Source: a virus. Taken from it: a stretch of 64,000 nt of DNA. The notes beneath the pieces were generated by a model that was not told where the DNA came from, ran no database searches, and saw only the letters and a program-made list of their open reading frames with translations. The stretch covers positions 4,018 to 68,017 of the IMG/VR virus record IMGVR_UViG_3300010376_000036. One strand, 5' to 3'. Below, piece by piece: positions 1 to 64,000 of this stretch; positions within the stretch are counted from its first letter, which is position 1; each line of letters opens with the position of its first letter. Made by a program: the position numbers and the translations under genes.

Positions 1-726
1 CAGGACGGCGGCTTGGCGCAAGGGCTAGGGAATTTCTTTGGATCGCTCTTTGGCCAGGGAGCCACCCAACCAGCGCAGCAACCAACTGGAACAGCGCAAG
101 GAGCTACCCAACCGTCGCAACAACCAGCATTTCCACAAGGAGCTACCCAGCCAGCACAAGCGCCAGCGCCGCCACCAGCGCCGACTGGCCCTGCCTTTAC
201 GCCGATGCCTCAGGAAACAGGAGGTGCGATCAAGAATCCTGCTTACCTTAAAGGAGCCCTAGCTGGACACGAGCAGGATTACTTTAATGCGGCTCAAAAA
301 TACGGTGTTGATCCGTACCTGATGATGGCCATCAGTTCTTATGAAACCGGCTGGGGGACTTCGAATGCCGTCAAGAAATACAACAATCTCTCCGGGTCCA
401 TGACCGGCGCTCAGGGCAAACAGTTCATGAAGTTTGATAACCTCGGCCAGTCGATTGACCAGTTTGCGCAAAACCTGAGCAGTAACCTTTATCAAGGTAA
501 AGATCTGTCTGACATTTGGTATCACTATTCGCCCTTCTACATGAATCCGAACAAGCATGTCGCCAATGATCCGGACAATACCAACCGCCAATGGGGCGGG
601 ACCGTGTCTAATTTCTATCAGCGATTTGGAGGACAGAATCCGATGTATTTGTCCGGTAACCTTGATAAGAAGCGGGCCTCGCTGGACCAAGGAGGCGAAC
701 CGCTACCCTACGATGCATATGATTAG
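1..726 (+). CDS. Glucosaminidase/lysozyme-fold peptidoglycan hydrolase domain protein, probably virion-associated; likely 5'-truncated by the window
   Basis: AAQKYGVDPYLMMAISSYETGWG...KYNNLSG is a typical GH73/lysozyme-like motif. The frame is open from base 1. N-terminal QGATQP repeats. Confidence 0.75.
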   Translation, partial: QDGGLAQGLGNFFGSLFGQGATQPAQQPTGTAQGATQPSQQPAFPQGATQPAQAPAPPPAPTGPAFTPMPQETGGAIKNPAYLKGALAGHEQDYFNAAQKYGVDPYLMMAISSYETGWGTSNAVKKYNNLSGSMTGAQGKQFMKFDNLGQSIDQFAQNLSSNLYQGKDLSDIWYHYSPFYMNPNKHVANDPDNTNRQWGGTVSNFYQRFGGQNPMYLSGNLDKKRASLDQGGEPLPYDAYD

Positions 727-47284: not shown

Positions 47285-48631
47285 ATGCCAGACGATAACC
47301 CTCCAATCAGTACCACGGTCCCGGAAACTGTCACGGTCGATACTGGTGCGAGTCCTGAGGACCTCAGCGCGCTAAAGGACCACTTCAAGGATTTCTGGGC
47401 GGAACAGGATTCTGAACCCAAAGCACCGGAAGCCCCCGGTCCAGCTCAGGAAACCAAGCCCGAAAAGGAGTTAGCCCCGGCTACTGAAAAAGTGGTAGCC
47501 AGGGTGGAACCTGTTGTTCCTCCGCCGACGGTGAAAGCTGAAGAATCGCCCAGGGAACATAGTGACGATGAGATTGATAAACTAACCCTGGTGACAGGGC
47601 AGCGCCCAGAGGTCTACGAACAGTTTAAGGTCGTCAAAGATAAATGGAAAGCTGACCGGGCTTTGTTGCGCACTCAGGAAGAACGACACAAAGCTATCGA
47701 AGCGCAGTTAAATGAGGCGCGCGCCAATCAACTTACGCCGGAACTAAGGGCTGACTACGAGCAATTAAACGGTATGCGGCGCCGGTTCAATATCGCTGCT
47801 GACCCGGAATTTAATCGCAGGTATCAGGTCCCGATCATCAACCAATACCTGAGTATCCTGGATGAAGCGGGCACCATGCTGGATGACCAGCAGCAAGGCG
47901 CGCGCTGGGCTGCCGATGTGAAGCAGGGCTGGGATAGTCCGGACAAACTAGGCGACACGATAGCTGAGCAGAAAGCATGGTGGCAACAAGCCGTGATCGC
48001 CAAAGTCTCCGATGAGATGAACCGGGAAGCGCTGCGGTCCCAGGTTAACGATTTGCTAAAACTCCAGAAAGATCGGAATACGGAGCTTTTCAAACACGGC
48101 AACGACGCTGCGAGCTACGACAACTGGATTAAGGAAAGAAATGCGGCAGCAAACAAATGGGCGCAGGAGGAGGTGCTGGCTGAGACCAGGATTCAGGAGC
48201 AACGGATTAAAGATTTTCTGCCGGTAGATATTAGTCAAGCTAAGACCAAGGAAGAGCGCGCGGCTATCGATGCGCACAATGAACGGTTCACACGACTGAA
48301 CGAATTCTTCAATCAAACGGTACAAGATCTTGAGCGTAACGGACCACGGGCCTGGGTGCGGGCGGCTCTGACCGCGACGCAGACCCAGATTATGGATGCG
48401 CAAATTGTTAACCTGGAAAAGGAATTGAAAGAAACAAAGGCTGAGCGCGACCAGCTCAAAAGCGATCTGGAAAAGATCAATGGTGCGCGCCGCCGGATAT
48501 CGCAGACGAGCGGTACGCCGCCGAGTCCGACCGGAGCCAAACCGCAGCAGAACGGGCAGGGCTTGTCTATACACGATCTGGATGTGCGCAAGAGCTTTAG
48601 GAACTTCGACTGGGGAGACGGCAGTAAATGA
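47285..48631 (+). CDS. Scaffolding protein (probable)
   Basis: Acidic disordered N-terminus, long coiled coils, and position. Confidence 0.6.
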   Translation: MPDDNPPISTTVPETVTVDTGASPEDLSALKDHFKDFWAEQDSEPKAPEAPGPAQETKPEKELAPATEKVVARVEPVVPPPTVKAEESPREHSDDEIDKLTLVTGQRPEVYEQFKVVKDKWKADRALLRTQEERHKAIEAQLNEARANQLTPELRADYEQLNGMRRRFNIAADPEFNRRYQVPIINQYLSILDEAGTMLDDQQQGARWAADVKQGWDSPDKLGDTIAEQKAWWQQAVIAKVSDEMNREALRSQVNDLLKLQKDRNTELFKHGNDAASYDNWIKERNAAANKWAQEEVLAETRIQEQRIKDFLPVDISQAKTKEERAAIDAHNERFTRLNEFFNQTVQDLERNGPRAWVRAALTATQTQIMDAQIVNLEKELKETKAERDQLKSDLEKINGARRRISQTSGTPPSPTGAKPQQNGQGLSIHDLDVRKSFRNFDWGDGSK

Positions 48632-49974
48632 TCTCGGTAAACGCAGAAGCTTTAGAGGCAAAGTATGGGGGACAGACCGGGGCGGCGGTTCAGCCAGCTC
48701 CCATGCAAGATCTTTATTATCCTGGGAGTGGTACGGTGCCAAACAAACAGGGACAGATACCGCAAGGAATACCCGTGTTAGAAGGTCAGTTTATTCAACA
48801 GCCTCAGGGGCGCGGCATGGCGGTGGTGCCGCCGCAACAGAATCAGCCCCCTGGACCGCAGATCGCGGTGGTGCCGCCGCAGCACGGAATCCGGACCACG
48901 ATAGGCACGATAGTCGAGCAGAGGGCGGTACCTGTGCCGGCCAAGCTGCCTGAACCCGACCCAACAACTCCTGTGCAGCCACTGAAGCCCCAGCGCGACC
49001 TGGATCTGGGTCAGATGATCTTGGAACATATCTGGGAAATGGGCGGTGCTAAGGCCAAGGCAGCTCAGGACTTCTACGAGAGAAGTCATGACACGCTAGA
49101 GAAATGGATGAAACAGCCAGGAACCATCCCGCTCTCCTGCGTCCTGAAGTTTATCAAGCGCACCCCAGGGGTTAAAGCCGATATCCTCGATGAGCTCGAA
49201 CCGCACTTCGCAGCCAACGGTCAGGAGGGATGGACCGAGAGTTTACCTAATCGTACCAAGACGAGCGTGATAGTCTGCGCACCGGTCCTGGAACGGCCGA
49301 CGTTGCCTTTCATGTGGACCTGTTTGTACTTGGCCAAGAAATACGAGCTTGGATTCGACGTGATGGCTGACACCGTGATCCACCGCAGCCGCAACATGTT
49401 AGCGCATCGGTTCCTCAAAAGCGGCGCAACCTGGAGTTTGTGGCTCGATTCCGACATGGCAGCGCCGATCAAGAATCCGGATTGGTACCGGTGGATCGCC
49501 GGTTCCCAGAACGTGCCTGAGGAATACACGAATTACGATGTGCTCGAGCGCCTCTTAGCCAGTGGCAAGCCGATTGTCGGAGGGGTTTACGCTTCGCGAA
49601 AATACCGAGGGCAACTGGTCGCTCAGCCCGAGATCCGGCCGCGACATCACGAGGACAAACTTCTGTGCGACCAGCTCCGCAGAGGGAGCGCCAGGGGTCT
49701 GGTCGAGGTCGATTGGATCGGATTCGGGTGTGCCTTGGTCCACCGGGAGGTCTTTTTGGAGGTCCAGCGCCAGTTCCCCAACCTCGCACCGGAGGCGGAA
49801 TTTACCCCCTGGAGGTACTTTCAACCGGAGAAAGACGAGGGCGAAGATGAGGCCTTCTGTCGCCGGGTCAAGCAATGCCAGATTCCCCTCTGGCTTGATA
49901 CACAGCTTATATGTCCGCATTTGGGCACGATGGCCTTTATGCCGGAACATTCAACCCCGCGACCAGACGTATGA
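48628..49974 (+). CDS. GT-A fold glycosyltransferase-like protein with long N-terminal extension
   Basis: IHRSRNMLA..FL...SLWLDSDM...IVGGVY...GFGCALVHREVF...GEDEAFCRR. Confidence 0.8.
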   Translation: MISVNAEALEAKYGGQTGAAVQPAPMQDLYYPGSGTVPNKQGQIPQGIPVLEGQFIQQPQGRGMAVVPPQQNQPPGPQIAVVPPQHGIRTTIGTIVEQRAVPVPAKLPEPDPTTPVQPLKPQRDLDLGQMILEHIWEMGGAKAKAAQDFYERSHDTLEKWMKQPGTIPLSCVLKFIKRTPGVKADILDELEPHFAANGQEGWTESLPNRTKTSVIVCAPVLERPTLPFMWTCLYLAKKYELGFDVMADTVIHRSRNMLAHRFLKSGATWSLWLDSDMAAPIKNPDWYRWIAGSQNVPEEYTNYDVLERLLASGKPIVGGVYASRKYRGQLVAQPEIRPRHHEDKLLCDQLRRGSARGLVEVDWIGFGCALVHREVFLEVQRQFPNLAPEAEFTPWRYFQPEKDEGEDEAFCRRVKQCQIPLWLDTQLICPHLGTMAFMPEHSTPRPDV

Positions 49975-49987
49975 GATTCCAACGACC

Positions 49988-50332
49988 ATGAAAATCTTAT
50001 TTTTGCTCTTGGGCCTAACCACGCTGGCAGTGCATGCCGCACCCTTCTTGGTCTGTGATCCGGTCCCGGCTAGCTCCGGCAACCAGGGGTTGAATGTAGT
50101 GTCCTACGTGATTACGGGGCTGGCCACGACCAATCTCAATGTGCAAGCGCAGGTCAATGCCGATGGCTCGCAGCAACTCCACTATGATTTGGGAGCGCTC
50201 AGCAATGGTTCTTACACCGTGACGGTGGCGGCCGTCAACGGCTTCGCTCAGGAGAGTCCGTTCACTGCCCCTTTCACCTTCACGGTGGGGGCACCGGCAA
50301 CCCCCACTGGTTTACGTCTGAGCCCAACCTGA
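49988..50332 (+). CDS. Secreted FN3/Ig-like small protein
   Basis: Signal peptide; GSYTVTVAAVNGFAQES...PATPTGLRL. Confidence 0.7.
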   Translation: MKILFLLLGLTTLAVHAAPFLVCDPVPASSGNQGLNVVSYVITGLATTNLNVQAQVNADGSQQLHYDLGALSNGSYTVTVAAVNGFAQESPFTAPFTFTVGAPATPTGLRLSPT

Positions 50333-50542
50333 GCCCGACTCCGGCGCAAGTGATTTTGGGCAGGTTTATTTTTCGAGCTCAGACGCCAACGCCGACTCCG
50401 AAACATCCGTGAAGAGGTCTAAAGCGGAGAAAAAACTGCTTAAGAAGATCACGAAACTGATTAAGAAATCTGCGCCCTATAACGACACACTTTCTTCAGA
50501 AGACCTCAACTTCGTGTTGCCGAAGTACATCGATAAAACAGA

Positions 50543-51256
50543 ATGCACGAAGACGAAATAATGCAGACTCCGGAAGGCTGGTGGGTAATGAGACACGATA
50601 CCCATTTCTCCCGTTGGGTGGAGCAAGCTAGGCGCCTGGATCACGATCAGCCGGTCCTCCAACGGCTGGTACCCTACATCAAACCCGGTTCGACCGTCTA
50701 CGATCTGGGCGCGGCCCTCGGCGATCACACGGTGTTTTATCTTAATCTGGTAGGAGCGACCGGGATCGTCGTGGCTATCGAGCCGCACCCCGTCCAGTTC
50801 GAATGCCTGAAACGCAATTGCCCACGGGCTTACTGTATCCCGCACGCCGTGGGGGAAACCCCAGGCGAAGTTTACCTCTTTCACGAGCCCGATTGCATCG
50901 GTGGCAGCCGGCTGGTTGATCCGGCTTGCCAGTGGCCGATGACCAAGCATCGCCGGATCACCATTGATGGCGACTGCGCGATTGGCGGCCAAGTGTCCTT
51001 CATGAAGATCGATATCGAGGGTTGTGAACCCCAGGCGCTTCGCGGTGCCCGACAGACGATTATGCATCATCGACCGACGATCTGGCTGGAGATTAACCCT
51101 ATCGCCTTACAGCGCCAGAATACTTCGACCGCCGAGCTCCAACATGTCTTGGAGAACGAACTGCAGTACCGTGTCGCCGAATTCTATCCGCCTGGGAGCG
51201 GGTGGCATGGGAGCGGAAACGACGCTCAATGTGATGCGCTGTTTTTACCGCGATGA
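50543..51256 (+). CDS. FkbM-family methyltransferase
   Basis: VYDLGAALGDHT...VVAIEPHP...FMKIDIEGCEPQALRGA..TI...RPTIWLE. Confidence 0.9.
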   Translation: MHEDEIMQTPEGWWVMRHDTHFSRWVEQARRLDHDQPVLQRLVPYIKPGSTVYDLGAALGDHTVFYLNLVGATGIVVAIEPHPVQFECLKRNCPRAYCIPHAVGETPGEVYLFHEPDCIGGSRLVDPACQWPMTKHRRITIDGDCAIGGQVSFMKIDIEGCEPQALRGARQTIMHHRPTIWLEINPIALQRQNTSTAELQHVLENELQYRVAEFYPPGSGWHGSGNDAQCDALFLPR

Positions 51257-53337: not shown

Positions 53338-54579
53338 ATGGCTGATTGTATTGTAACTCCCATACAAGCCGTAGATTTTGCCAATCGTGATAACAACCGT
53401 CTTGTCGGTCAAATTACGACCCTGATCATGCGGCGCGCGCCGTATAACGACACCCTCGATGGTGGCGTTTTCGAGAACGGAATTTCGGATCAACAGAGGA
53501 ACGTGGTGGTCGAAAGACCAATCCTTGGGCAATCGCTCGTGTTGCCTGAGTATATCAATGACACTGATTCATGTGGAACATTCGGGCAAATCGCCCAGGT
53601 CGGCACGACGGAATACGTAACCCGGCTGGGGACTCTCCGTGGCAGAGGCCCTAAGGTGTGCTGCAAACAAATGCGCTCGGCATTTGAGAACAGCTACGTC
53701 GCGGTCCAGGATTCTTTGCAGAAACAGCTCCTCTATCTGAGCAACTGCGATGTGCGGAGCCAGTTGTTCCTGCACAGTGGGTTCAAAGTCAAGATCAACC
53801 AGGGGCGCACGTTCGAGGCGATGGTCAATGGCGACGTCCAGATGATCGATGTGGGCATGAACGATTCGACGCCACCTGACGCAAATTTAACATTCAGTTT
53901 CTTGCAGTACCTGCTCGTGTTCGCGCATGAAACCCTCCTATGCGAAGCATTCGAGAGCGAGAAAGGTGCGATTGCGAAATTCATCGGGAGCCAGAACCAA
54001 TTGAACGTGTTCCGGGACGAGTTGAACGTCCATCAGGATCTCCAGTACTTGACCACTGGGAAATACGATCTGGGCCACGAAGCGCTTACTGGTTACACCT
54101 GGGAAGGGCCTTATCGTGGCATTGCGTTTGGCATTGATCAACAGCCGTTGCGTTTCAACACGTTTACAGTGCTCAACGGACAGCTTATACCGCAATTCAT
54201 TGAACCAGAAATTGCGGTCGCCGTGACCACGGGGTTCGGGGCGAGAACAAATCCAGCTTGGTTGTACGCGCAATACGAGGTAGGCTTTCTTATATTCGCC
54301 AACAGCTTTCGTAGGCTAGTGCCCGAGCAATACCTGGGTGTTGGTGACTGGAAGTTCCCTGCGCAATACGCTCAAGGGGAGTTGGAATTCACTGTGATAC
54401 GGGATAATGATTGTAATACTTATGGTGATTATGGGTATCACATCTATCAGATGATCAGGGCGTATCGTCCTGAACGGCCACATGCCGTAATACCGATTGC
54501 ATACAAAAGGTGCAATCCCACGTTCAATTTCCTTACTTGCAATTCGTATCCTGGTTCTGCATCAGGTTACAGCATGTAG
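53338..54579 (+). CDS. Major capsid protein (probable)
   Basis: 413 aa with a long leader, a downstream terminator, and a position after scaffold and before tail genes. Confidence 0.75.
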   Translation: MADCIVTPIQAVDFANRDNNRLVGQITTLIMRRAPYNDTLDGGVFENGISDQQRNVVVERPILGQSLVLPEYINDTDSCGTFGQIAQVGTTEYVTRLGTLRGRGPKVCCKQMRSAFENSYVAVQDSLQKQLLYLSNCDVRSQLFLHSGFKVKINQGRTFEAMVNGDVQMIDVGMNDSTPPDANLTFSFLQYLLVFAHETLLCEAFESEKGAIAKFIGSQNQLNVFRDELNVHQDLQYLTTGKYDLGHEALTGYTWEGPYRGIAFGIDQQPLRFNTFTVLNGQLIPQFIEPEIAVAVTTGFGARTNPAWLYAQYEVGFLIFANSFRRLVPEQYLGVGDWKFPAQYAQGELEFTVIRDNDCNTYGDYGYHIYQMIRAYRPERPHAVIPIAYKRCNPTFNFLTCNSYPGSASGYSM

Positions 54580-54585
54580 GGATGC

Positions 54586-54622
54586 GAGGACCCGTGGCAC
54601 AAAATGGGTCCTCCTTCTTTTT
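54586..54622 (+). terminator. Intrinsic terminator after the capsid gene
   Basis: GAGGACCC-loop-GGGTCCTC followed by CTTCTTTTT. Confidence 0.7.
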
Positions 54623-58975: not shown

Positions 58976-60283
58976 ATGTCAGTTCAGCAACAAGTCCCCT
59001 TAAAGATCTCAATAGCGCCGTTCCCGGAAGGATTTGAGGGCGACGCAGACGAATACGGCCAGCAACTGGTCCAGCTGATGGAAGCCTACATCGAGGGCAA
59101 CTTCCTGACCGGGCTGATCCTGCCGGCCGGTTCCACGCTCCCGACGACTGACCAGGGGCCGATTGCCATGGGCGGGAGCTGGTACTTCTTTGATCCGGTT
59201 AGCGGCACCTATCAGCCCCAATCGATCTCAGCTAAGGTGGCACGCAATTATGCCAAGAACGCCACCTACCAGATCGCGCAGCTGCCAGCCATGGCGTCTT
59301 CTTTCACGGTGCCGTTGGGTGACACCAACACCTATGACATGGTGGTGACCCGAGCGACGATTGCCAGCGTGTTGGCTATCGCAGCTGATACCGGGCCGCC
59401 AGCCAGCGGTGACACCGACAACTGCCTTTCCGCCATCAAATACACGGTAGGTCCAACCTTGGTCCCGACATTGGCAGCGACTGACCGGTTCATCCACGAG
59501 CACCTGATCGAGGGCTCTGATATCGTCATGCTTCAGGGTGAAACGCTCACCCTGGCCTTCAGCGTTTTTACCAATGTCCCCGGTACTTACTCGGTTTATT
59601 TGACCACAGGCGCGCGCGATGCTTCTTACGTCGCCAATTTCACTGTGCAAGCTGCCAATGTCTGGCAACGGGTGAGAATCACCGGTATCCCGGCCTTACC
59701 TGTGAGCACCCTTGGCACCTGGAGCTTTGGCGAGGGCACGACCGGGCTGCGCATCGGGGTGGTATTCGCCATCGGTAGCAATTCCCAGACTGCGACCACT
59801 AATCTCAATAAATGGATTTCAGGCGGTTTCTGCGGCACGGCTAACAATTCCAATCTGTGTACCGTAATTAACAACCAGTTCAAGATTTCGGCGATCAAGC
59901 TGGAGGCGAGCCCAACCGCTACTTACTGCACGGTTAACTCGTTCGAGCAGGATCTGCACGATGCCATCCGGTACTACTGGACCAATTTCACTTATCAGCT
60001 GGTCAATGCGGGAACGGCAACCCAAGCAGTGGCCAACGTAGCCAACAATGTACTCTTCACCCAGCTGTTTCCGCGCCGGATGTGTAAGGTGCCGACCGTC
60101 GTGCCCTACGGGTTCACTTCGTACGCTGCCGGCAAAGTCACCAATTTCAGCACCGCCACCGATTACACGGTAGCCACCATCGGCGCGACCCAGAAAGGCG
60201 TGACCGGCCAACCAACGGGGCTAACGGCAGCCAAAGGAGACGTATTCGCAGCTTACCTCAAAGCCGATGCAACGCTCACTTAA
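58976..60283 (+). CDS. Tail fibre/spike protein, distant paralog of 33661 and 34915
   Basis: HLIEG..., ANVWQRV, AIRYYW pattern shared with those proteins. Confidence 0.65.
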   Translation: MSVQQQVPLKISIAPFPEGFEGDADEYGQQLVQLMEAYIEGNFLTGLILPAGSTLPTTDQGPIAMGGSWYFFDPVSGTYQPQSISAKVARNYAKNATYQIAQLPAMASSFTVPLGDTNTYDMVVTRATIASVLAIAADTGPPASGDTDNCLSAIKYTVGPTLVPTLAATDRFIHEHLIEGSDIVMLQGETLTLAFSVFTNVPGTYSVYLTTGARDASYVANFTVQAANVWQRVRITGIPALPVSTLGTWSFGEGTTGLRIGVVFAIGSNSQTATTNLNKWISGGFCGTANNSNLCTVINNQFKISAIKLEASPTATYCTVNSFEQDLHDAIRYYWTNFTYQLVNAGTATQAVANVANNVLFTQLFPRRMCKVPTVVPYGFTSYAAGKVTNFSTATDYTVATIGATQKGVTGQPTGLTAAKGDVFAAYLKADATLT

Positions 60284-60680
60284 AGAACCGGACGAGAGCG
60301 ACATCTCGTTGCTTCCCATCGAGAACGAACGCCGCATCCACGAGTTCGGGATCGACCTGATGTCCCAGCAGCTGCTGGGTAGCCCGGTCAGTCGCCAGTT
60401 CCCGATCTATCTAGTGCTGCATAAAGGCAGACCGGTCGGCTTTTTCCAAGCGCTCCAGCAGACGGTCATCTATCCAGCGATTAACCCGGAGATGATCAGC
60501 CCGCGTCAGTTCGTTAAGGTGGTGAAATTTTTAGCAACCGAAGTGAAGCGCCAAGTTGGTGACCCGCTGTTTTTACTCTGTCCCAAAGCAACCGAGATCG
60601 GACCGAAAGGCATGCGTATGATGCGCCTCAAGAAAGCACCTGAAGAAGCCTATATCTATAGCGAAGAGGAGGAGGACTAA
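60267..60680 (+). CDS. Hypothetical protein preceding the ejection-protein gene
   Basis: 137 aa. Confidence 0.6.
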   Translation: MQRSLKEPDESDISLLPIENERRIHEFGIDLMSQQLLGSPVSRQFPIYLVLHKGRPVGFFQALQQTVIYPAINPEMISPRQFVKVVKFLATEVKRQVGDPLFLLCPKATEIGPKGMRMMRLKKAPEEAYIYSEEEED

Positions 60681-60684
60681 ATTT

Positions 60685-62352
60685 ATGCCTAGTGGTGGCG
60701 GTGGCGGCGGTGCAGCTCAATTCAAGGCGCAGGGGGCACCTCCGGGGTTCGATTACCAGACAGCGATGGGTCTCAACCAGATGGCCATCGGGGCCGATAT
60801 CTCGTCCTACGCTTTAAGCGACATCGATTTTGCTAATCGGTACCCGGCATTACAAAACGCCTATAACCAGTACCAAGCGATGTTAAACCAGCAGGTGCCA
60901 GGGGTGGCCGGCGGCGCGGCTGGCACCGGTCAGATCATGCAAGGGCTGGGGGGCAACATCCTGGGTCGCCTCGGCACCGATACCACCTCTGACATTAACG
61001 CTCTGCGGGGTCAGGCCGGCACGGTCGCCAGCGCCGCGCAACCGCTGTTCAACATCGGGGCAACCCAGACCGGGATGGCGCAACCGATCTACAACCTGGG
61101 GCAGGCCCAGGCCGGCTACGCGCAACCCATTGCGCAGCTGGGTGCGCAACAGGCGGGTTTAGCTCAACCGCTGATTAACCTGGGTGGCCGGATCAGCGGC
61201 ATCGGTGGCCAGATCAACCGGATGGGTGGACAGATGGCCGGCATGGCGGCAACGCCGTACGCGATGGGGCAACAGCTTTTGCAGGAACCCATCGATCCGC
61301 AGACCCAGCAACAAATGATGCGAGCCGGCCTGGGGAGCGCAGCCGGGGCATTGGGCGCAGCGTCTCTTGGGCAAGGGATGGCGGGACAGGCGGCGGCTGC
61401 GAGACAACTTGGACTCAATACGCTTCAATACGGGCAAGCCATGCGCGGTGAAGCGATGCAGGATATCGGGCAAGCTGCCTCGATTCTTGGACAAGCCGGC
61501 CAGTTACGCGGGTTAGGTGGGCAGACCATGGGGCTCGGGGGCCAGACCATGGGACTGGGCGGCCAGCAATTAACCGCTGGCGGACAGTTGTATGGCCTGG
61601 GTGCAGGCCAGTTGGGAGCCGGGGCGCAGACCATGGGGCTGGGCAGCAATGTCCTGGGCCAAGGCGCCCAGAGCTACGGGCTTGGGGTTAATGCAGCCGC
61701 GCAAGCTGGCGGCCTCTACGGCAGCGCTCAGAACATGCAGGAACAGATGGGCATGAACACCGCCCAGATGGCTGCGATCTATGGCGGACTTCAGCAACAG
61801 CAAGCTAACCAGTTTATGGCTAACATGGGGCAAGCCTATAACATGTTCCAGAAACGGCCCTTCGGGTTAGGCGGCACTAACCTCGCGCAAGCCGAGCTCG
61901 GCCAAGCGGGTTCTTATAACTCTTTCCAGCAGGCCAACTACGCGACGATGAACGGTATAGCCTTTAACCAAGCACAGATGGCGGCTCAGCAACAACAGCT
62001 CCAAGCCCAACAGAGCGCCGGGATGATGTCAGCCGGGGTCGGGGCAGCAGGCGCTGTGGCACAGGCGGCGTCGGCGGCAGCAGCCATAACATGCTGGGTG
62101 GCGCGAGCTTGCTATGGGATAGATGATCCACGCTGGCTCTATTTCCGAAGCTGGCTGTTCTCGAAGCGGTGCCCATGGCTGTTGCGGAAACTGTACCTGA
62201 GATTCGGAGAACGTCTAGCAGAAAAACTTCTCAACGGTAAGAATGAAGGCTTGAGGCGATTGATCAAGAGAGCTATGGATCGAGTCATCTATGACCGCTG
62301 CTTTATCGCTAACGCCTTCGGAGCTCGTCCGTTTCAATTCGTTCTTGGATAA
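60685..62352 (+). CDS. Gly/Gln/Ala/Met-rich internal virion (ejection) protein candidate
   Basis: GGQTMGL heptad repeats; C-terminal CWVARACYG...W..FR.W....LY...GE domain. Confidence 0.7.
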   Translation: MPSGGGGGGAAQFKAQGAPPGFDYQTAMGLNQMAIGADISSYALSDIDFANRYPALQNAYNQYQAMLNQQVPGVAGGAAGTGQIMQGLGGNILGRLGTDTTSDINALRGQAGTVASAAQPLFNIGATQTGMAQPIYNLGQAQAGYAQPIAQLGAQQAGLAQPLINLGGRISGIGGQINRMGGQMAGMAATPYAMGQQLLQEPIDPQTQQQMMRAGLGSAAGALGAASLGQGMAGQAAAARQLGLNTLQYGQAMRGEAMQDIGQAASILGQAGQLRGLGGQTMGLGGQTMGLGGQQLTAGGQLYGLGAGQLGAGAQTMGLGSNVLGQGAQSYGLGVNAAAQAGGLYGSAQNMQEQMGMNTAQMAAIYGGLQQQQANQFMANMGQAYNMFQKRPFGLGGTNLAQAELGQAGSYNSFQQANYATMNGIAFNQAQMAAQQQQLQAQQSAGMMSAGVGAAGAVAQAASAAAAITCWVARACYGIDDPRWLYFRSWLFSKRCPWLLRKLYLRFGERLAEKLLNGKNEGLRRLIKRAMDRVIYDRCFIANAFGARPFQFVLG

Positions 62353-62830
62353 AAACGATGCTGTATATCCTCAATGCTGGGTCTGGACTGGCGCGAAAAA
62401 TCGGGGCTACGGAATTTTCCAAGCTACGACGCTCCAGCCAAGAACCAGACGGGCTAATAGGCTGGCATATCAATTGTGGGTCGGACCTATTCCGAAGGGT
62501 CTCCAAGTTCAGCACAAATGCGATAACCCTGCTTGCTGCAATCCCCAGCATTTATTCCTTGGCACCGCAGCTCAGAACTCGCGTCAGATGGTCGGACTTG
62601 GTCGCGCGGCCACAGGCATCAAGCACGGCATGGCAAAGCTCACGGCTCAACAGGTTAGCGACATTCGCGTTTTCTGCACGCAGGGACTCCAGTACCGTGC
62701 TATCGCAGCGCGCTTCGGTATCAGCGAGAGCCATGTTCGCAACATCGACAGGCGAAGGAGGCGGCTAAAAGATGGCAACCCCTTCAATAACCCGCAAAGA
62801 ACTTCGCGAGGCAACCGTGCAAACGGTTAA
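62291..62830 (+). CDS. HNH homing endonuclease
   Basis: CWVWTGA...GYG...ANRLAY...GPIPKGLQVQHKCDNPACCNPQHLFLGT..QN; C-terminal HTH. Confidence 0.88.
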   Translation: MTAALSLTPSELVRFNSFLDKNDAVYPQCWVWTGAKNRGYGIFQATTLQPRTRRANRLAYQLWVGPIPKGLQVQHKCDNPACCNPQHLFLGTAAQNSRQMVGLGRAATGIKHGMAKLTAQQVSDIRVFCTQGLQYRAIAARFGISESHVRNIDRRRRRLKDGNPFNNPQRTSRGNRANG

Positions 62831-64000
62831 CGCGGTGTCGCGCAAAGAGCTGCTTAATGATTTCGGCATCTCGCGAGTGGCCGATCTGACCGGGTTGGAT
62901 GCGGTCCGGCTACCTTGCCACACCTGTGTCCGTGCGCTTTCGGAAACGGTCTCGATTCATTCCGGGAAAGGACTCGAGCCCGCCTATTCGCGGTGCGGCG
63001 CGATCATGGAAGCCATCGAATTCCATGCGGGGGAACACCCCACCGGACCTTTCCGGATCAACAGAGCCATTGAGTTACCAGAGGAAGAACGTTTGCCGCT
63101 CGAGGACTGTTTCCCGAGCCGTTCAACGATCCTTAACGAGCTTACCCCGATTGCTTGGGAAGAAGCTATCAACGTGCAGAACGGGGCACCGAAACTGGTG
63201 CCGAGCGATCTGCTCTGGCTGGTGACCAGAATTAAGAGCCAGCCGCTGATGTACGTCCAGATGGGTTCGAACGGGATAGCGAGCGGAGGAACCGTCGAAG
63301 ACGCGATTCTTTCAGGTTTGTACGAATGCATCGAACGGGATGCTTGGACGTTGAACCAATACCTCTTGGATAGCGGCATGCTCTTAACCCGAACGCCCTT
63401 GACTAGCGTCCCGGAGAAGATCGAGGCTTGTATCCGCAAGATCGAAGCCGCCGAGCTGCGGTTGCACCTCTTCGATATCACCACCGATTACCGGGTGCCC
63501 GTCTTTAACGCTCTCATTTTAGATCTAAGCGGGCGCTGTGCTGGCACCTTTGGCGGCTACGGTTGCCACTTAAATGCCGAGGTCGCCGCGATCCGTGCCA
63601 TTACCGAAGCCGCGCAAGCGCGCTGTTGCTATATCTCGGGCGCTCGCGATGATCTGTTTCGCCGGCAATTCCTGCTCATGAAACGGATGGATCAGGCCAA
63701 GCTCGATAAGATGTTTAACGAGTTACCTGTCGGCTCGATGCTCAGCGATTATCGGACTGTTTCGTTTCCCGATGTACGAAGCGAGCTGCGCTATTTGCTC
63801 AAGCTGGTTAAAGGGATTGGGATCTCGGAGGTCTTCGTCAAGGAAATGGGTTCGTACGTGAACGGTGCCGTCCACGTGGTCCGCGTCTTTTCTCCGCAAC
63901 TGGAACCCTTCCGGTTCGATCATTGGCAAGCCGGGCTGCGGTGTCTGTCCTATGCCCGCCGCTACCTGGAAAAGCTGGGAGACGGCAAAGGCAAAACAGC
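62772..64000 (+). CDS. ycaO: YcaO-family enzyme (TfuA-associated/thioamide type), 3'-truncated by the window
   Basis: Manual translation from ATG 62772: GISRVADLTGLD...HSGKG...MEAIE...SNGIASG...GLYECIERDAW...GYGCHLN...RAITEAAQAR...SGARDD. No stop codon before the window end. Confidence 0.9.
   Translation, partial: MATPSITRKELREATVQTVNAVSRKELLNDFGISRVADLTGLDAVRLPCHTCVRALSETVSIHSGKGLEPAYSRCGAIMEAIEFHAGEHPTGPFRINRAIELPEEERLPLEDCFPSRSTILNELTPIAWEEAINVQNGAPKLVPSDLLWLVTRIKSQPLMYVQMGSNGIASGGTVEDAILSGLYECIERDAWTLNQYLLDSGMLLTRTPLTSVPEKIEACIRKIEAAELRLHLFDITTDYRVPVFNALILDLSGRCAGTFGGYGCHLNAEVAAIRAITEAAQARCCYISGARDDLFRRQFLLMKRMDQAKLDKMFNELPVGSMLSDYRTVSFPDVRSELRYLLKLVKGIGISEVFVKEMGSYVNGAVHVVRVFSPQLEPFRFDHWQAGLRCLSYARRYLEKLGDGKGKT

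What the first reader, a model, noticed from the sequence alone, without database searches (positions are those of the whole stretch)
62772..64000. YcaO enzyme inside the virion morphogenesis operon (absent from the ORF track)
Seen: an open frame of at least 409 codons with YcaO ATP-binding motifs (SGKG, MEAIE, SNGIASG, ECIERDA, EAAQAR, GARDD). Known: YcaO enzymes phosphorylate peptide backbone amides to form thioamides, azolines or amidines, and the N-terminal GI.RVADLTGLD type resembles TfuA-partnered thioamide YcaOs such as the one acting on McrA glycine. Inference: the phage may backbone-modify its own virion or ejection proteins, for example the adjacent Gly-rich protein, or a host protein. 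I know of no characterised phage case.
Basis: partly seen in the sequence, partly recalled or inferred. Interest (0 to 1): 0.85.

Follow-up and report, generated by a model that had tools for sequence, protein, structure and literature searches.

The report
Phage YcaO thioamidation enzyme, cut short
An uncultured phage carries an intact-looking YcaO enzyme which, in every related phage, pairs with a TfuA partner to swap a backbone oxygen for sulfur in a protein; it probably modifies one of the phage's own proteins, but the target is still only inferred.

Summary
Window 62772-63998 (+) encodes 409 residues of a YcaO (PF02624, E 6.6e-59), and all listed motifs are present. The frame is open only because the 68-kb viral contig ends there; about 6 residues are missing.

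TfuA does follow YcaO in 4 of 4 close relatives and in 43 of 43 viral loci with downstream DNA. The gene is phage DNA, not host DNA.

The closest characterised relatives are the methanogen McrA-thioglycine pair, but the scores fall below both equivalog cut-offs.

The proposed target is the adjacent Gly-rich protein. It is plausible: 43 of 46 YcaO loci sit directly after a gene with a small-residue run.

My new counter-evidence weakens this. The same tail-domain family occurs without YcaO-TfuA in 79 of 80 sampled loci. A tree shows that YcaO-plus phages represent only one or two independent events.

New leads: the long TfuA's C-terminal half weakly resembles SurA-type chaperones, and the tail domain also caps leader-bearing, RiPP-like small proteins in bacteria.

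Unique to this window is an HNH endonuclease gene inserted at the tail-gene/ycaO junction.

Earlier runs of this scan found the same clade in at least 14 other genomes. I found no published description.

The parts
62772..63998 (+). ycaO. ATP-dependent backbone-amide-activating enzyme, 409 of about 415 residues; cut off by the end of the contig.
   Evidence: PF02624 E 6.6e-59, full domain. TIGR00702 YcaO-type kinase domain, 145.8 bits against cut-off 75.65. Best solved structure MJ1094, E 6.7e-29. Catalytic residues mapped onto E. coli YcaO and invariant in 24 phage homologs.
60685..62352 (+). Upstream 555-aa Gly/Ala/Gln-rich protein (17% G, 17% A, 14% Q) and the candidate substrate. It belongs to a widespread phage family defined by its C-terminal tail.
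   Evidence: No Pfam, NCBIfam or PHROG family. Homologs sit directly upstream of ycaO in 4 of 4 close relatives. 115 upstream proteins link into one BLAST family. Composition.
62014..62091 (+). Small-residue run, residues 444-469 of the upstream protein: 26 residues of A/G/S/V/M/T/I with one Gln. This is the most likely thioamidation site if the upstream protein is the target. Alternatively it is simply a weakly hydrophobic membrane-inserting helix.
   Evidence: Alignment A3. A run of this kind precedes ycaO in 43 of 46 loci. A/G/S/T content is 0.71 in YcaO-plus tails against 0.57 in YcaO-minus tails. Maximum Kyte-Doolittle 19-residue mean is 1.45.
62092..62349 (+). CWVAR domain, residues 470-555. 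It starts with an invariant Cys-Trp-x-Ala-Arg and is basic (18 K+R against 7 D+E), with 4 Trp and 4 Cys.
   Evidence: Invariant columns in A3. At least 599 matching stretches in viral contigs. No Pfam or NCBIfam family. Also found in the cultured phage HMO-2011 gp25 and on small bacterial leader-bearing proteins.
62291..62830 (+). HNH_3-type endonuclease gene with a C-terminal helix-turn-helix, on an insertion of about 460 bp (about 62326-62785) at the tail-gene/ycaO junction. It breaks the overlap of the two genes seen in most relatives.
   Evidence: PF13392 E 1.3e-13 and zf-His_Me_endon E 3.1e-06. Of 14 loci examined, 12 had the upstream gene located, and the window is the only one of these with a gap of 419 bp, against -20 to +1 nt in the other 11. 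Boundaries from the DNA alignment with L009 and L010. Only one weak relative (29% identity, elsewhere in L023) among 165 other sources.
60267..60680 (+). Conserved 137-aa gene of unknown function directly upstream of the tail-bearing gene.
   Evidence: Homologs at the same position in 4 of 4 close relatives (42-54% identity to L003's copy). Similar ORFs precede the tail gene in the divergent loci L035, L038, L040, L051, L052 and L056. No Pfam family.

Best explanation
The window's last gene is a functional YcaO. In the complete phage genome it works with a TfuA encoded immediately downstream, on the roughly 6 kb missing from this contig.

Established from the enzyme family: YcaO uses ATP to activate a backbone amide carbonyl, and TfuA hydrolyses a thiocarboxylated ThiS-type carrier to hand over sulfide, giving a thioamide.

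Shown here: the gene is intact, it is of the TfuA-partnered type, and it is a conserved part of a phage gene block.

Inferred: the carrier is borrowed from the host, because these phages encode no ThiS or ThiF.

Inferred, about 45% likely: the substrate is a phage protein, most probably the A/G/S/T-rich run (residues 444-469) just before the CWVAR domain of the protein encoded directly upstream. That protein is a likely internal-virion or ejection protein. The run may receive one or several thioamides, as in thioamitides.

Lead only: the helical C-terminal half of the long TfuA acts as a SurA-like holder for the unfolded substrate segment.
For: Intact enzyme: PF02624 E 6.6e-59. Catalytic residues are present and invariant across 24 phage homologs down to 27% identity.

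Thioamide type: the best NCBIfam model is TIGR03266 and the best structure is MJ1094. TfuA follows in 4 of 4 close relatives and 43 of 43 loci with downstream DNA. The TfuA N-terminal domain matches the solved M. acetivorans TfuA 6xp8 at Z 24.6, rmsd 2.2 A over 193 residues.

Phage gene, not host: the order p608, fibre-like, p145, tail protein, YcaO, TfuA, G/P-rich proteins, giant protein is conserved, and the giant protein is the one that opens this contig.

Host sulfur carrier: ThiS was found in 0 of 1 own record and 0 of 5 relatives (3 of them 100% complete). ThiF was found in 0 of 5 relatives. The same searches ring in 12 and 14 of 14 control genomes. The TfuA/ThiS mechanism comes from PMC13063428 (Discussion passage) and PMC8153245 (passages).

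Target: 37 of 46 YcaO loci have the tail-domain gene immediately upstream. Six more have an upstream protein that lacks the CWVAR domain but ends exactly on a small-residue run. In the 11 relatives whose upstream gene was located, the junction with ycaO is -20 to +1 nt; 10 of the 11 overlap it by 4-20 nt. The upstream partner is one family, whereas the gene after TfuA falls into six unlinked multi-member BLAST clusters plus six singletons. YcaO-plus tails are richer in A/G/S/T (0.71 against 0.57) and free of the charged residues seen in YcaO-minus tails.

Precedent: a YcaO/TfuA pair iteratively installs four thioamides at the Ser-Val-Met-Ala-Ala end of the thiostreptamide S4 core (PMC8153245 passages).

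TfuA extension: 7 of the 8 chains with Z of 5 or more are SurA, PEB4, PrsA or trigger-factor chaperone modules (best Z 7.1, rmsd 2.5 A over 88 residues). Foldseek's top three rows are the same family.
Against: No tool result shows a thioamide or any enzyme-substrate contact.

tfuA is not visible in this record.

The tail-domain family is common without the enzymes: 79 of 80 viral loci fetched with the tail alignment lack YcaO and TfuA, and 66 of those 79 have at least 1.5 kb of downstream DNA. All 80 metagenome loci lack them too.

On a tree of the tail protein, built without the run's own columns, YcaO presence needs only 2 changes, and one origin is not excluded. The adjacency and the compositional contrast therefore amount to one or two independent observations, and the Mann-Whitney p-values are inflated by shared ancestry.

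The small-residue run also exists in less pure form in YcaO-minus phages. It can be read as a weakly hydrophobic membrane helix: median maximum KD19 is 1.71 in YcaO-plus tails and 1.45 in the window.

The run has no invariant residue.

In one complete genome (G303) the enzyme pair lies about 16 kb from the tail gene.

Scores are below the equivalog cut-offs: TIGR03266 172 against 365, NF033432 137 against 235.

The SurA-like match is below the tool's trust line (Z under 8; Foldseek E about 1.4).
Confidence: 0.45

Rival explanations
1. The pair thioamidates a different phage protein, for example one of the G/P-rich proteins or the giant lysin-bearing protein encoded after tfuA, or a capsid or tail protein. 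Adjacency to the tail-bearing gene only reflects where the cassette once inserted.
For: YcaO presence maps to only one or two events on the tail-protein tree, so conserved adjacency may simply be inherited. The pair is embedded in a block of large low-complexity proteins. In G303 the pair works from 16 kb away. E. coli YcaO recognises a folded protein that is not encoded nearby (PMC13063428, sections read).
Against: The gene after TfuA is not conserved between YcaO-plus lineages: six unlinked multi-member clusters plus singletons, and 0 of 40 link to the downstream genes of YcaO-minus phages. The upstream family is constant. Six lineages kept a small-residue C-terminus next to ycaO even after losing the CWVAR domain.
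Confidence: 0.15
2. The target is a host protein. The phage brings a thioamidation pair to alter a host machine during infection, and the pair's position in the late block is incidental.
For: The two characterised protein substrates, McrA and uL16, are core cellular proteins (PMC13063428 introduction). The phage relies on host sulfur carriers anyway. No enzyme-substrate link to any phage protein is demonstrated.
Against: The pair is co-oriented and tightly packed, mostly overlapping, with late, structural-side genes, not with early or takeover genes, in 43 of 46 loci. No host is known for this phage: no tRNA and no cultured relative carrying the enzyme. The idea therefore has no specific support.
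Confidence: 0.15
3. It is a RiPP-like system. The C-terminal part of the upstream protein, or an unannotated small ORF, is modified and then cleaved to release a thioamidated peptide or domain, for example a membrane-active or anti-competitor product.
For: In bacteria the CWVAR domain caps small leader-bearing proteins, sometimes in tandem triplets, next to a PqqD/RRE domain, a transglutaminase-like core, a nucleotidyltransferase and other tailoring enzymes. One cyanobacterial YcaO-TfuA relative sits with a Nif11-leader precursor and a radical-SAM/SPASM enzyme. Thioamitide YcaO-TfuA pairs act on short precursors.
Against: No protease, RRE or exporter was found beside the phage pair. The bacterial small CWVAR genes have no YcaO or TfuA nearby in 0 of 80 loci. 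The phage protein is 279-977 aa and its N-terminal part is conserved within lineages. None of 54 short homologs carries a Nif11 domain.
Confidence: 0.1
4. The YcaO performs other chemistry, such as azoline formation at the invariant Cys of CWVAR, amidine formation or ATP-dependent peptide cleavage, rather than thioamidation.
For: The YcaO superfamily carries out all of these reactions (PMC13063428 introduction). An invariant Cys directly follows the small-residue run. TIGR03604 (SagD-type) also matches at 109 bits.
Against: TfuA is present in 43 of 43 loci with downstream DNA. No ThiF/E1-like partner was found in 5 relatives. The SagD model scores below its cut-off, 109 against 219. The Cys is equally invariant in phages without YcaO and is absent in six lineages that keep the enzymes.
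Confidence: 0.07

Closest known systems
Methanogen YcaO-TfuA, which forms thioglycine 465 of methyl-coenzyme M reductate subunit McrA (TIGR03266 / NF033432; structures 6pe3/6peu and 6xp8)
   Same: It is the best NCBIfam model and the best solved structure for the YcaO. The TfuA N-terminal domain superposes on 6xp8 at Z 24.6. The ycaO stop overlaps the tfuA start, as described for methanogens (PMC5589413 passages). It acts on a protein, not on a short peptide.
   Different: Both scores are below the equivalog cut-offs: 172 against 365 and 137 against 235. The genes are carried by a phage, there is no McrA, and TfuA is twice as long because of a helical C-terminal half.
Uncharacterised bacterial YcaO + long-TfuA clusters (seen here in cyanobacterial genomes, loci L158, L159, L007)
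   Same: A stand-alone YcaO of about 410-446 aa lies beside a TfuA of 433-452 aa. The TfuA C-terminal extension in L158 and L159 matches the HMM built from the phage extension (E 1e-30 and 1e-21). These are the nearest cellular relatives I could place (29-33% identity; 9 of 301 cyanobacterial genomes searched).
   Different: Identity is low. The neighbours differ: 2OG-Fe(II) oxygenase and an EcsC-family protein, a second ThiF-fused YcaO and a GNAT, or an ABC-transporter fragment. No tail-domain gene is present. Their function is also unknown.
Thioamitide YcaO-TfuA pairs (TsaH/TsaI of thiostreptamide S4; thioviridamide family)
   Same: A YcaO plus TfuA iteratively installs several thioamides at the Ser-Val-Met-Ala-Ala end of the core, a stretch of small and hydrophobic residues (PMC8153245 passages). 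This is the best chemical precedent for modifying an Ala-rich run.
   Different: The substrate there is a short leader-bearing precursor inside a multi-enzyme biosynthetic cluster. Here the candidate is a 555-aa phage protein, and no other tailoring enzymes are adjacent. I did not test sequence relatedness to TsaH/TsaI.
E. coli YcaO, which thioamidates ribosomal protein uL16 Met82
   Same: The same superfamily and the same active-site residues. It modifies an intact folded protein (PMC13063428).
   Different: Only the central 120 residues align (E 5e-08). NF040716 scores 31 bits against a cut-off of 700. The E. coli enzyme is 586 aa, has no TfuA, and its substrate is not encoded nearby.

Membership tests
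YcaO superfamily (PF02624 / TIGR00702) | Full-length match to the YcaO domain above the curated cut-off | tested here: met
   PF02624 at 200.3 bits against 25.7, model positions 1-325 of 325. TIGR00702 at 145.8 bits against 75.65.
YcaO superfamily (PF02624 / TIGR00702) | ATP/Mg-binding acidic and basic residues of the active site | tested here: met
   Window E185/E188/R275/E279 align with EcYcaO E199/E202/R286/E290. E202A is the dead control in PMC13063428. The residues are invariant in 24 phage homologs. That the residues other than E202 bind ATP or Mg is recalled, not read here.
TfuA-dependent thioamide-forming YcaO | A tfuA gene adjacent to ycaO | not testable with these tools
   The contig ends about 6 codons before the ycaO stop, so this phage's own tfuA cannot be read. 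In relatives the feature is met: 4 of 4 close relatives and 43 of 43 loci with downstream DNA.
TfuA-dependent thioamide-forming YcaO | No fused or adjacent E1-like/ThiF-type cyclodehydratase partner | tested here: met
   The YcaO is a stand-alone single-domain protein. The ThiF family was found in 0 of 5 related phage genomes.
TfuA-dependent thioamide-forming YcaO | Product is a backbone thioamide (+15.977 Da) | not testable with these tools
   This needs mass spectrometry.
McrA-glycine thioamidation YcaO (TIGR03266, equivalog) | Score at or above the equivalog cut-off of 365 bits | tested here: not met
   172.5 bits. It works like this family but is not a member.
TfuA-related McrA-glycine thioamidation protein (NF033432, equivalog), for the partner in relatives | Score at or above the cut-off of 235.2 bits | tested here: not met
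   137.5 bits for the L003/L009 TfuA and 121.5 bits for a short phage TfuA. The Pfam TfuA domain is met at E 4.2e-31.
TOMM cyclodehydratase, SagD family (TIGR03604) | Score at or above the cut-off of 219.25 bits | tested here: not met
   109.4 bits.
uL16/S12-associated E. coli-type YcaO (NF040716) | Score at or above the cut-off of 700 bits | tested here: not met
   30.9 bits, central region only.
SurA-N / trigger-factor-C type chaperone module (for the TfuA C-terminal extension in relatives) | Significant structural match covering the module | tested here: inconclusive
   Best match Z 7.1, rmsd 2.5 A over 88 residues (8qpv_F). Seven of the 8 chains with Z of 5 or more are of this kind. Foldseek's top rows are the same family but at E about 1.4. 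Both are below the tools' trust lines. Grouping these entries as one fold is my recollection.
HNH_3 homing-type endonuclease (inserted ORF 62291-62830) | Match to PF13392 above the cut-off | tested here: met
   50.8 bits against 24.8, E 1.3e-13.

The most novel reading that the evidence does not exclude
These phages install one or several backbone thioamides in the Ala/Gly-rich, membrane-inserting segment of an ejection protein before packaging. They use host ThiS-type sulfur and a TfuA whose built-in SurA-like domain holds the unfolded segment. This would be the first protein thioamidation known in a virus and the third protein substrate known anywhere. It would tie the CWVAR tail to a wider, undescribed class of enzyme-processed protein ends that also includes leader-bearing bacterial precursors.
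Probability: 0.3. Interest if true: 0.85.

Novelty: new variant of a known kind. Interest (0 to 1): 0.62.

Why it matters
According to a 2026 paper whose introduction I read (PMC13063428), backbone thioamides are known in only two proteins, McrA and uL16. A virus-encoded YcaO-TfuA pair, conserved across two deeply divergent groups of uncultured phages, would extend this chemistry to viruses. The phage contigs are about 40 kb and about 75 kb, the YcaO identity falls to 27%, and the best 120 of 1,664 database relatives are all at least 61% identical.

It would also offer a compact, genetically linked enzyme/candidate-substrate pair for studying how TfuA-dependent YcaOs choose protein substrates.

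The link to the neighbouring protein rests on few independent events. This particular record also lacks tfuA, so a complete relative is the better object for experiments.

Tried and rejected
Circular closure of the contig. Rejected: the contig starts inside a 1,580-aa open frame unrelated to YcaO.

Co-fold of the window's YcaO with the 130-residue tail (complex prediction, alignments A4 and A3). Score 0.02 against a mark of 0.32. The tool's verdict is 'no answer', so it counts neither for nor against binding.

I therefore could not inspect the 315-kb and 91-kb contigs that carry close homologs, and the host remains unknown. There are no tRNA genes in the window.

The genome-contig scan reached only two distant cellular relatives. 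I went on through the genome search in the cyanobacterial phylum.

GenBank phages: no YcaO match. The tail domain matched only phage HMO-2011.

BLASTP did not align the TfuA extension with the Prochlorococcus long TfuA. An HMM did find it in two other cyanobacteria.

Nif11-leader link of the tail domain (atlas structure row, TM 0.60/0.50). Not confirmed by sequence: 0 of 54 short homologs carry a precomputed Nif11 domain. The single-sequence search reached only 12 fragments.

Resemblance of CWVAR to CFI-box-CTERM (earlier notes). No NCBIfam family at E up to 0.01 for the window's tail.

Thiazoline at the invariant Cys. Rejected; see the fourth rival.

Poly-Gly N-terminus of the upstream protein as a thioglycine-like target. 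It is lineage-specific: G4 or longer occurs in 11 of 29 YcaO-plus against 1 of 69 YcaO-minus N-termini, and it is absent from the other YcaO-plus lineages.

No near-identical full-length copy of this YcaO exists among the proteins fetched; the best is 90% identical. I could not extend this phage's own sequence.

I did not use the look-up of sequencing runs or read laying. Supplementary files of the papers were not opened and may hold residue lists or phylogenies that bear on the subfamily assignment.
Full report
WHAT IS THERE

The window is bases 4018-68017 of a 68,017-bp viral contig rated 92% complete. Its last feature is an open frame of 409 codons, 62772-63998 on the + strand. It has an ATG start behind a GGAGG and no stop, because the contig ends there. 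The other end of the contig lies inside a giant open frame, so the ends do not close a circle.

The frame is a YcaO. PF02624 matches at E 6.6e-59 over the whole 325-position model. TIGR00702 scores above its cut-off. Against the complete 405-aa homolog of a relative, it covers residues 1-399 at 83% identity, so only about six residues are missing.

IS THE ENZYME INTACT, AND OF WHICH KIND?

In an alignment of 24 phage homologs that diverge to 27% identity, the motif residues are invariant. Aligned with E. coli YcaO, window E185/E188 fall on E199/E202 and R275/E279 fall on R286/E290. E202A is the inactive control used in the 2026 uL16 study (PMC13063428, passages).

The best NCBIfam model is the methanogen McrA-glycine thioamidation YcaO, TIGR03266, but at 172 bits against a cut-off of 365. 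The SagD-type and E. coli-type models score far lower. The best solved structure is the methanogen enzyme MJ1094 (E 6.7e-29, full length). So it works like the thioamide-forming branch without being an ortholog of the methanogen enzyme.

THE MISSING PARTNER

That DNA is not in the record. Four related viral contigs (68-83% identical YcaO) all continue with a TfuA gene. It overlaps the ycaO stop in the two where my script caught it and lies within about 70 nt of it in the other two. In L003 it is 435 aa, with PF07812 at E 4.2e-31.

After TfuA come G/P-rich proteins and then the giant glucosaminidase-bearing protein that opens our own contig. The gene is therefore phage DNA inside a conserved block, and the missing 6 kb or so very probably holds tfuA.

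A wider scan found 46 viral loci with YcaO relatives down to 26% identity. TfuA follows in 43 of the 43 that have DNA downstream.

The family is large. Of 1,664 database relatives, the best 120 are all at least 61% identical, and many sit on contigs of 74-79 kb. In the 50%-identity representative library the clade collapses to one representative at 56% identity, with the next families at 35-43%. All of those are metagenome-only.

HOW SULFUR WOULD ARRIVE

The papers I read state that TfuA hydrolyses thiocarboxylated ThiS to supply sulfide to its YcaO (PMC13063428 Discussion passage; PMC8153245 passages). Neither this record nor five relatives, three of them complete, encode ThiS, and the five relatives encode no ThiF. 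The same searches ring in 12 and 14 of 14 control genomes. Use of a host carrier is therefore inferred.

THE SUBSTRATE QUESTION: EVIDENCE FOR THE UPSTREAM PROTEIN

The gene before ycaO (60685-62352) encodes a 555-aa Gly/Ala/Gln-rich protein with no family match. Its end has three parts:
- a Gln-rich segment;
- a 26-residue run of small uncharged residues (444-469);
- an 86-residue basic domain starting with an invariant Cys-Trp-x-Ala-Arg.

An HMM of this tail hits the gene immediately upstream of ycaO in 37 of 46 loci, although that protein varies from 279 to 977 aa. In six more loci the upstream protein has no CWVAR domain but ends exactly on a small-residue run. Three loci lack such a gene upstream.

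In the 11 relatives whose upstream gene my script located, the gap to ycaO runs from -20 to +1 nt, and 10 of the 11 overlap. The upstream proteins form one BLAST family of 115. The gene after TfuA falls into six unlinked clusters plus six singletons.

YcaO-plus tails have more A/G/S/T in the 25 residues before the Cys (0.71 against 0.57). They also lack the Lys, Asp, Phe and Pro that interrupt YcaO-minus tails.

Chemically, a YcaO/TfuA pair is known to place four thioamides iteratively at the Ser-Val-Met-Ala-Ala end of the thiostreptamide S4 core (PMC8153245).

THE SUBSTRATE QUESTION: EVIDENCE AGAINST, FOUND HERE

The tail domain is abundant in viral contigs, with at least 599 matching stretches. 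Of 80 loci fetched with it, 79 have neither YcaO nor TfuA, and 66 of those 79 have at least 1.5 kb of downstream DNA. All 80 metagenome loci lack both as well. The family is thus a general phage protein. It is also present in the cultured SAR116 podovirus HMO-2011, after the tail-fibre genes. The enzymes are an accessory in a minority of these phages.

I built a tree of the tail protein without the run's own columns. The YcaO-plus rows form two clusters, the label needs two changes, and one origin is not excluded. The adjacency and the composition contrast therefore count as one or two independent observations, and the p-values overstate the case.

The run can also be read as a weakly hydrophobic helix. 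The maximum KD19 is 1.45 in the window, with a median of 1.71 in YcaO-plus tails and 1.30 in YcaO-minus tails. That would suit an ejection protein regardless of any modification.

In one complete 40.6-kb genome the pair sits about 16 kb from the tail gene, which still has an Ala-rich run. Its flanking genes place it in the same clade, so this is a relocation, not an independent gain.

I put the upstream-run hypothesis at about 45%. Other phage proteins and host proteins get about 15% each.

THE LONG TFUA

Phage TfuAs come in a long form of about 430-480 aa (this clade) and a form of about 330 aa. A model of the long form is confident (mean pLDDT 84). Residues 3-202 superpose on M. acetivorans TfuA 6xp8 (Z 24.6; Foldseek E 2e-13).

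The extension folded alone (pLDDT 81) is all-helical. Seven of its eight matches with Z of 5 or more are the chaperone modules of SurA, PEB4, PrsA and trigger factor. The best is Z 7.1, rmsd 2.5 A over 88 residues, corresponding to TfuA residues 248-337. Foldseek ranks the same family first, but without significance. This is a lead: a built-in holder for an unfolded substrate segment.

The extension is shared with cells. Two cyanobacterial long TfuAs match the phage-derived extension HMM at 1e-30 and 1e-21. Nine of 301 cyanobacterial genomes carry a YcaO relative.

WHAT IS SPECIAL ABOUT THIS WINDOW

An insertion of about 460 bp carrying an HNH_3 endonuclease gene (62291-62830, E 1.3e-13) sits exactly at the tail-gene/ycaO junction. 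Of 14 loci compared, the 12 in which the upstream gene was located include only one with such a gap, the window. ycaO keeps its own Shine-Dalgarno sequence.

A SIDE DISCOVERY

The CWVAR domain also ends small proteins of 104-150 aa in soil and freshwater metagenomes. Their N-termini look like RiPP leaders, and two loci carry three copies in tandem.

Conserved neighbours include:
- a PqqD/RRE domain (E 5.9e-13);
- a transglutaminase-like core (1.4e-9);
- an NTP_transf_5 nucleotidyltransferase (1.9e-19);
- a formyltransferase-like enzyme (2.7e-17);
- a weak HPr-kinase-like P-loop protein (5e-4, below cut-off).

That this set recalls lasso-type accessory genes is my recollection. No YcaO or TfuA is nearby. 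This suggests that the module is a substrate end for post-translational enzymes more generally. That is circumstantial support for the phage hypothesis, but not a test of it.

COMPARISON AND NOVELTY

The system works like the methanogen YcaO-TfuA pair, but it fails both equivalog cut-offs, is virus-borne, and has a long TfuA. I found no paper on a viral YcaO or TfuA:
- 'YcaO, TfuA, phage': 2 unrelated papers;
- 'YcaO, bacteriophage, thioamide': none relevant among the 20 listed;
- 'TfuA, viral': 10 papers, none on a phage enzyme by title or abstract;
- 'YcaO, phage-encoded': 0 papers.

Earlier runs of this scan had already reported the same clade in at least 14 other genomes, with the same favoured target. 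My additions are the reverse co-occurrence test, the tree showing few independent events, the structural lead on the TfuA extension (also guessed by eye in earlier notes), the HNH insertion, and the bacterial leader-CWVAR proteins.

VERDICT

It is a new variant of a known kind. Interest is 0.62. Because this record lacks tfuA, a complete relative is the better object for experiments.

Noticed in passing
window 62291-62830 (insertion about 62326-62785): An HNH_3 endonuclease gene with a C-terminal HTH is inserted exactly at the junction where the tail gene and ycaO overlap in relatives. Of 14 loci examined, the upstream gene was located in 12, and the window is the only one of these with such a gap.
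   Followed up: yes
loci L167-L206; for example L170:2047-2496, L173:1202-2422, L175:2-1344: Small proteins (104-150 aa) consisting of a RiPP-leader-like N-terminus, a short G/S/T/A/V stretch and the CWVAR domain. L173 and L175 each carry three in tandem. They lie beside PqqD/RRE, transglutaminase-like, NTP_transf_5, formyltransferase-like and weak HPr-kinase-like genes. This may be an undescribed RiPP-like family. No YcaO or TfuA is nearby.
   Followed up: partly
L002 1-4743 (contig start; window 1-726): A giant protein of at least 1,580 aa, open at the 5' end, with Pro/Ala-rich linkers, DUF7178 (E 1.3e-11) and a C-terminal glucosaminidase domain (E 1.4e-11). It is probably the ejected cell-wall-degrading internal protein.
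   Followed up: no
window 60685-60730 and relatives: The upstream protein starts with a run of 6-8 glycines in the 75-kb clade. G4 or longer occurs in 11 of 29 YcaO-plus N-termini against 1 of 69 YcaO-minus. Other YcaO-plus lineages lack the run, so it is lineage-specific.
   Followed up: partly
window 48628-51256: A glycosyltransferase-like ORF (phrog_34859, E 3.3e-08) and an FkbM-type methyltransferase (PF05050, E 6.2e-14) sit inside the head-gene region. This suggests that further virion or host modification is encoded.
   Followed up: no
window 54586-54613: A strong terminator-like hairpin (10 pairs, 6 G-C, followed by a T run) lies directly after the 413-aa ORF 53338-54579. Downstream of it, all genes up to ycaO are tightly packed on the + strand.
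   Followed up: no
L159 2966-8862 (cyanobacterial genome G281): A cellular cluster with two YcaOs around one long TfuA: a stand-alone 446-aa YcaO and a 762-aa ThiF-like/YcaO fusion, with a GNAT gene between them.
   Followed up: no
L163 2017-9025 (cyanobacterial genome G036): A Nif11-leader precursor (E 1.3e-08), a radical-SAM/SPASM enzyme, a metallo-beta-lactamase-fold protein, a 473-aa TfuA and a YcaO together. This is a RiPP-type cluster with a YcaO relative (29% identity to the phage enzyme).
   Followed up: partly
L166 8-1570 (complete phage genome G303): In a 40.6-kb phage with terminal repeats, the tail gene and the usual post-TfuA gene abut directly (985 and 989), while YcaO-TfuA lies about 16 kb away. 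This shows that the cassette can relocate as a unit.
   Followed up: partly
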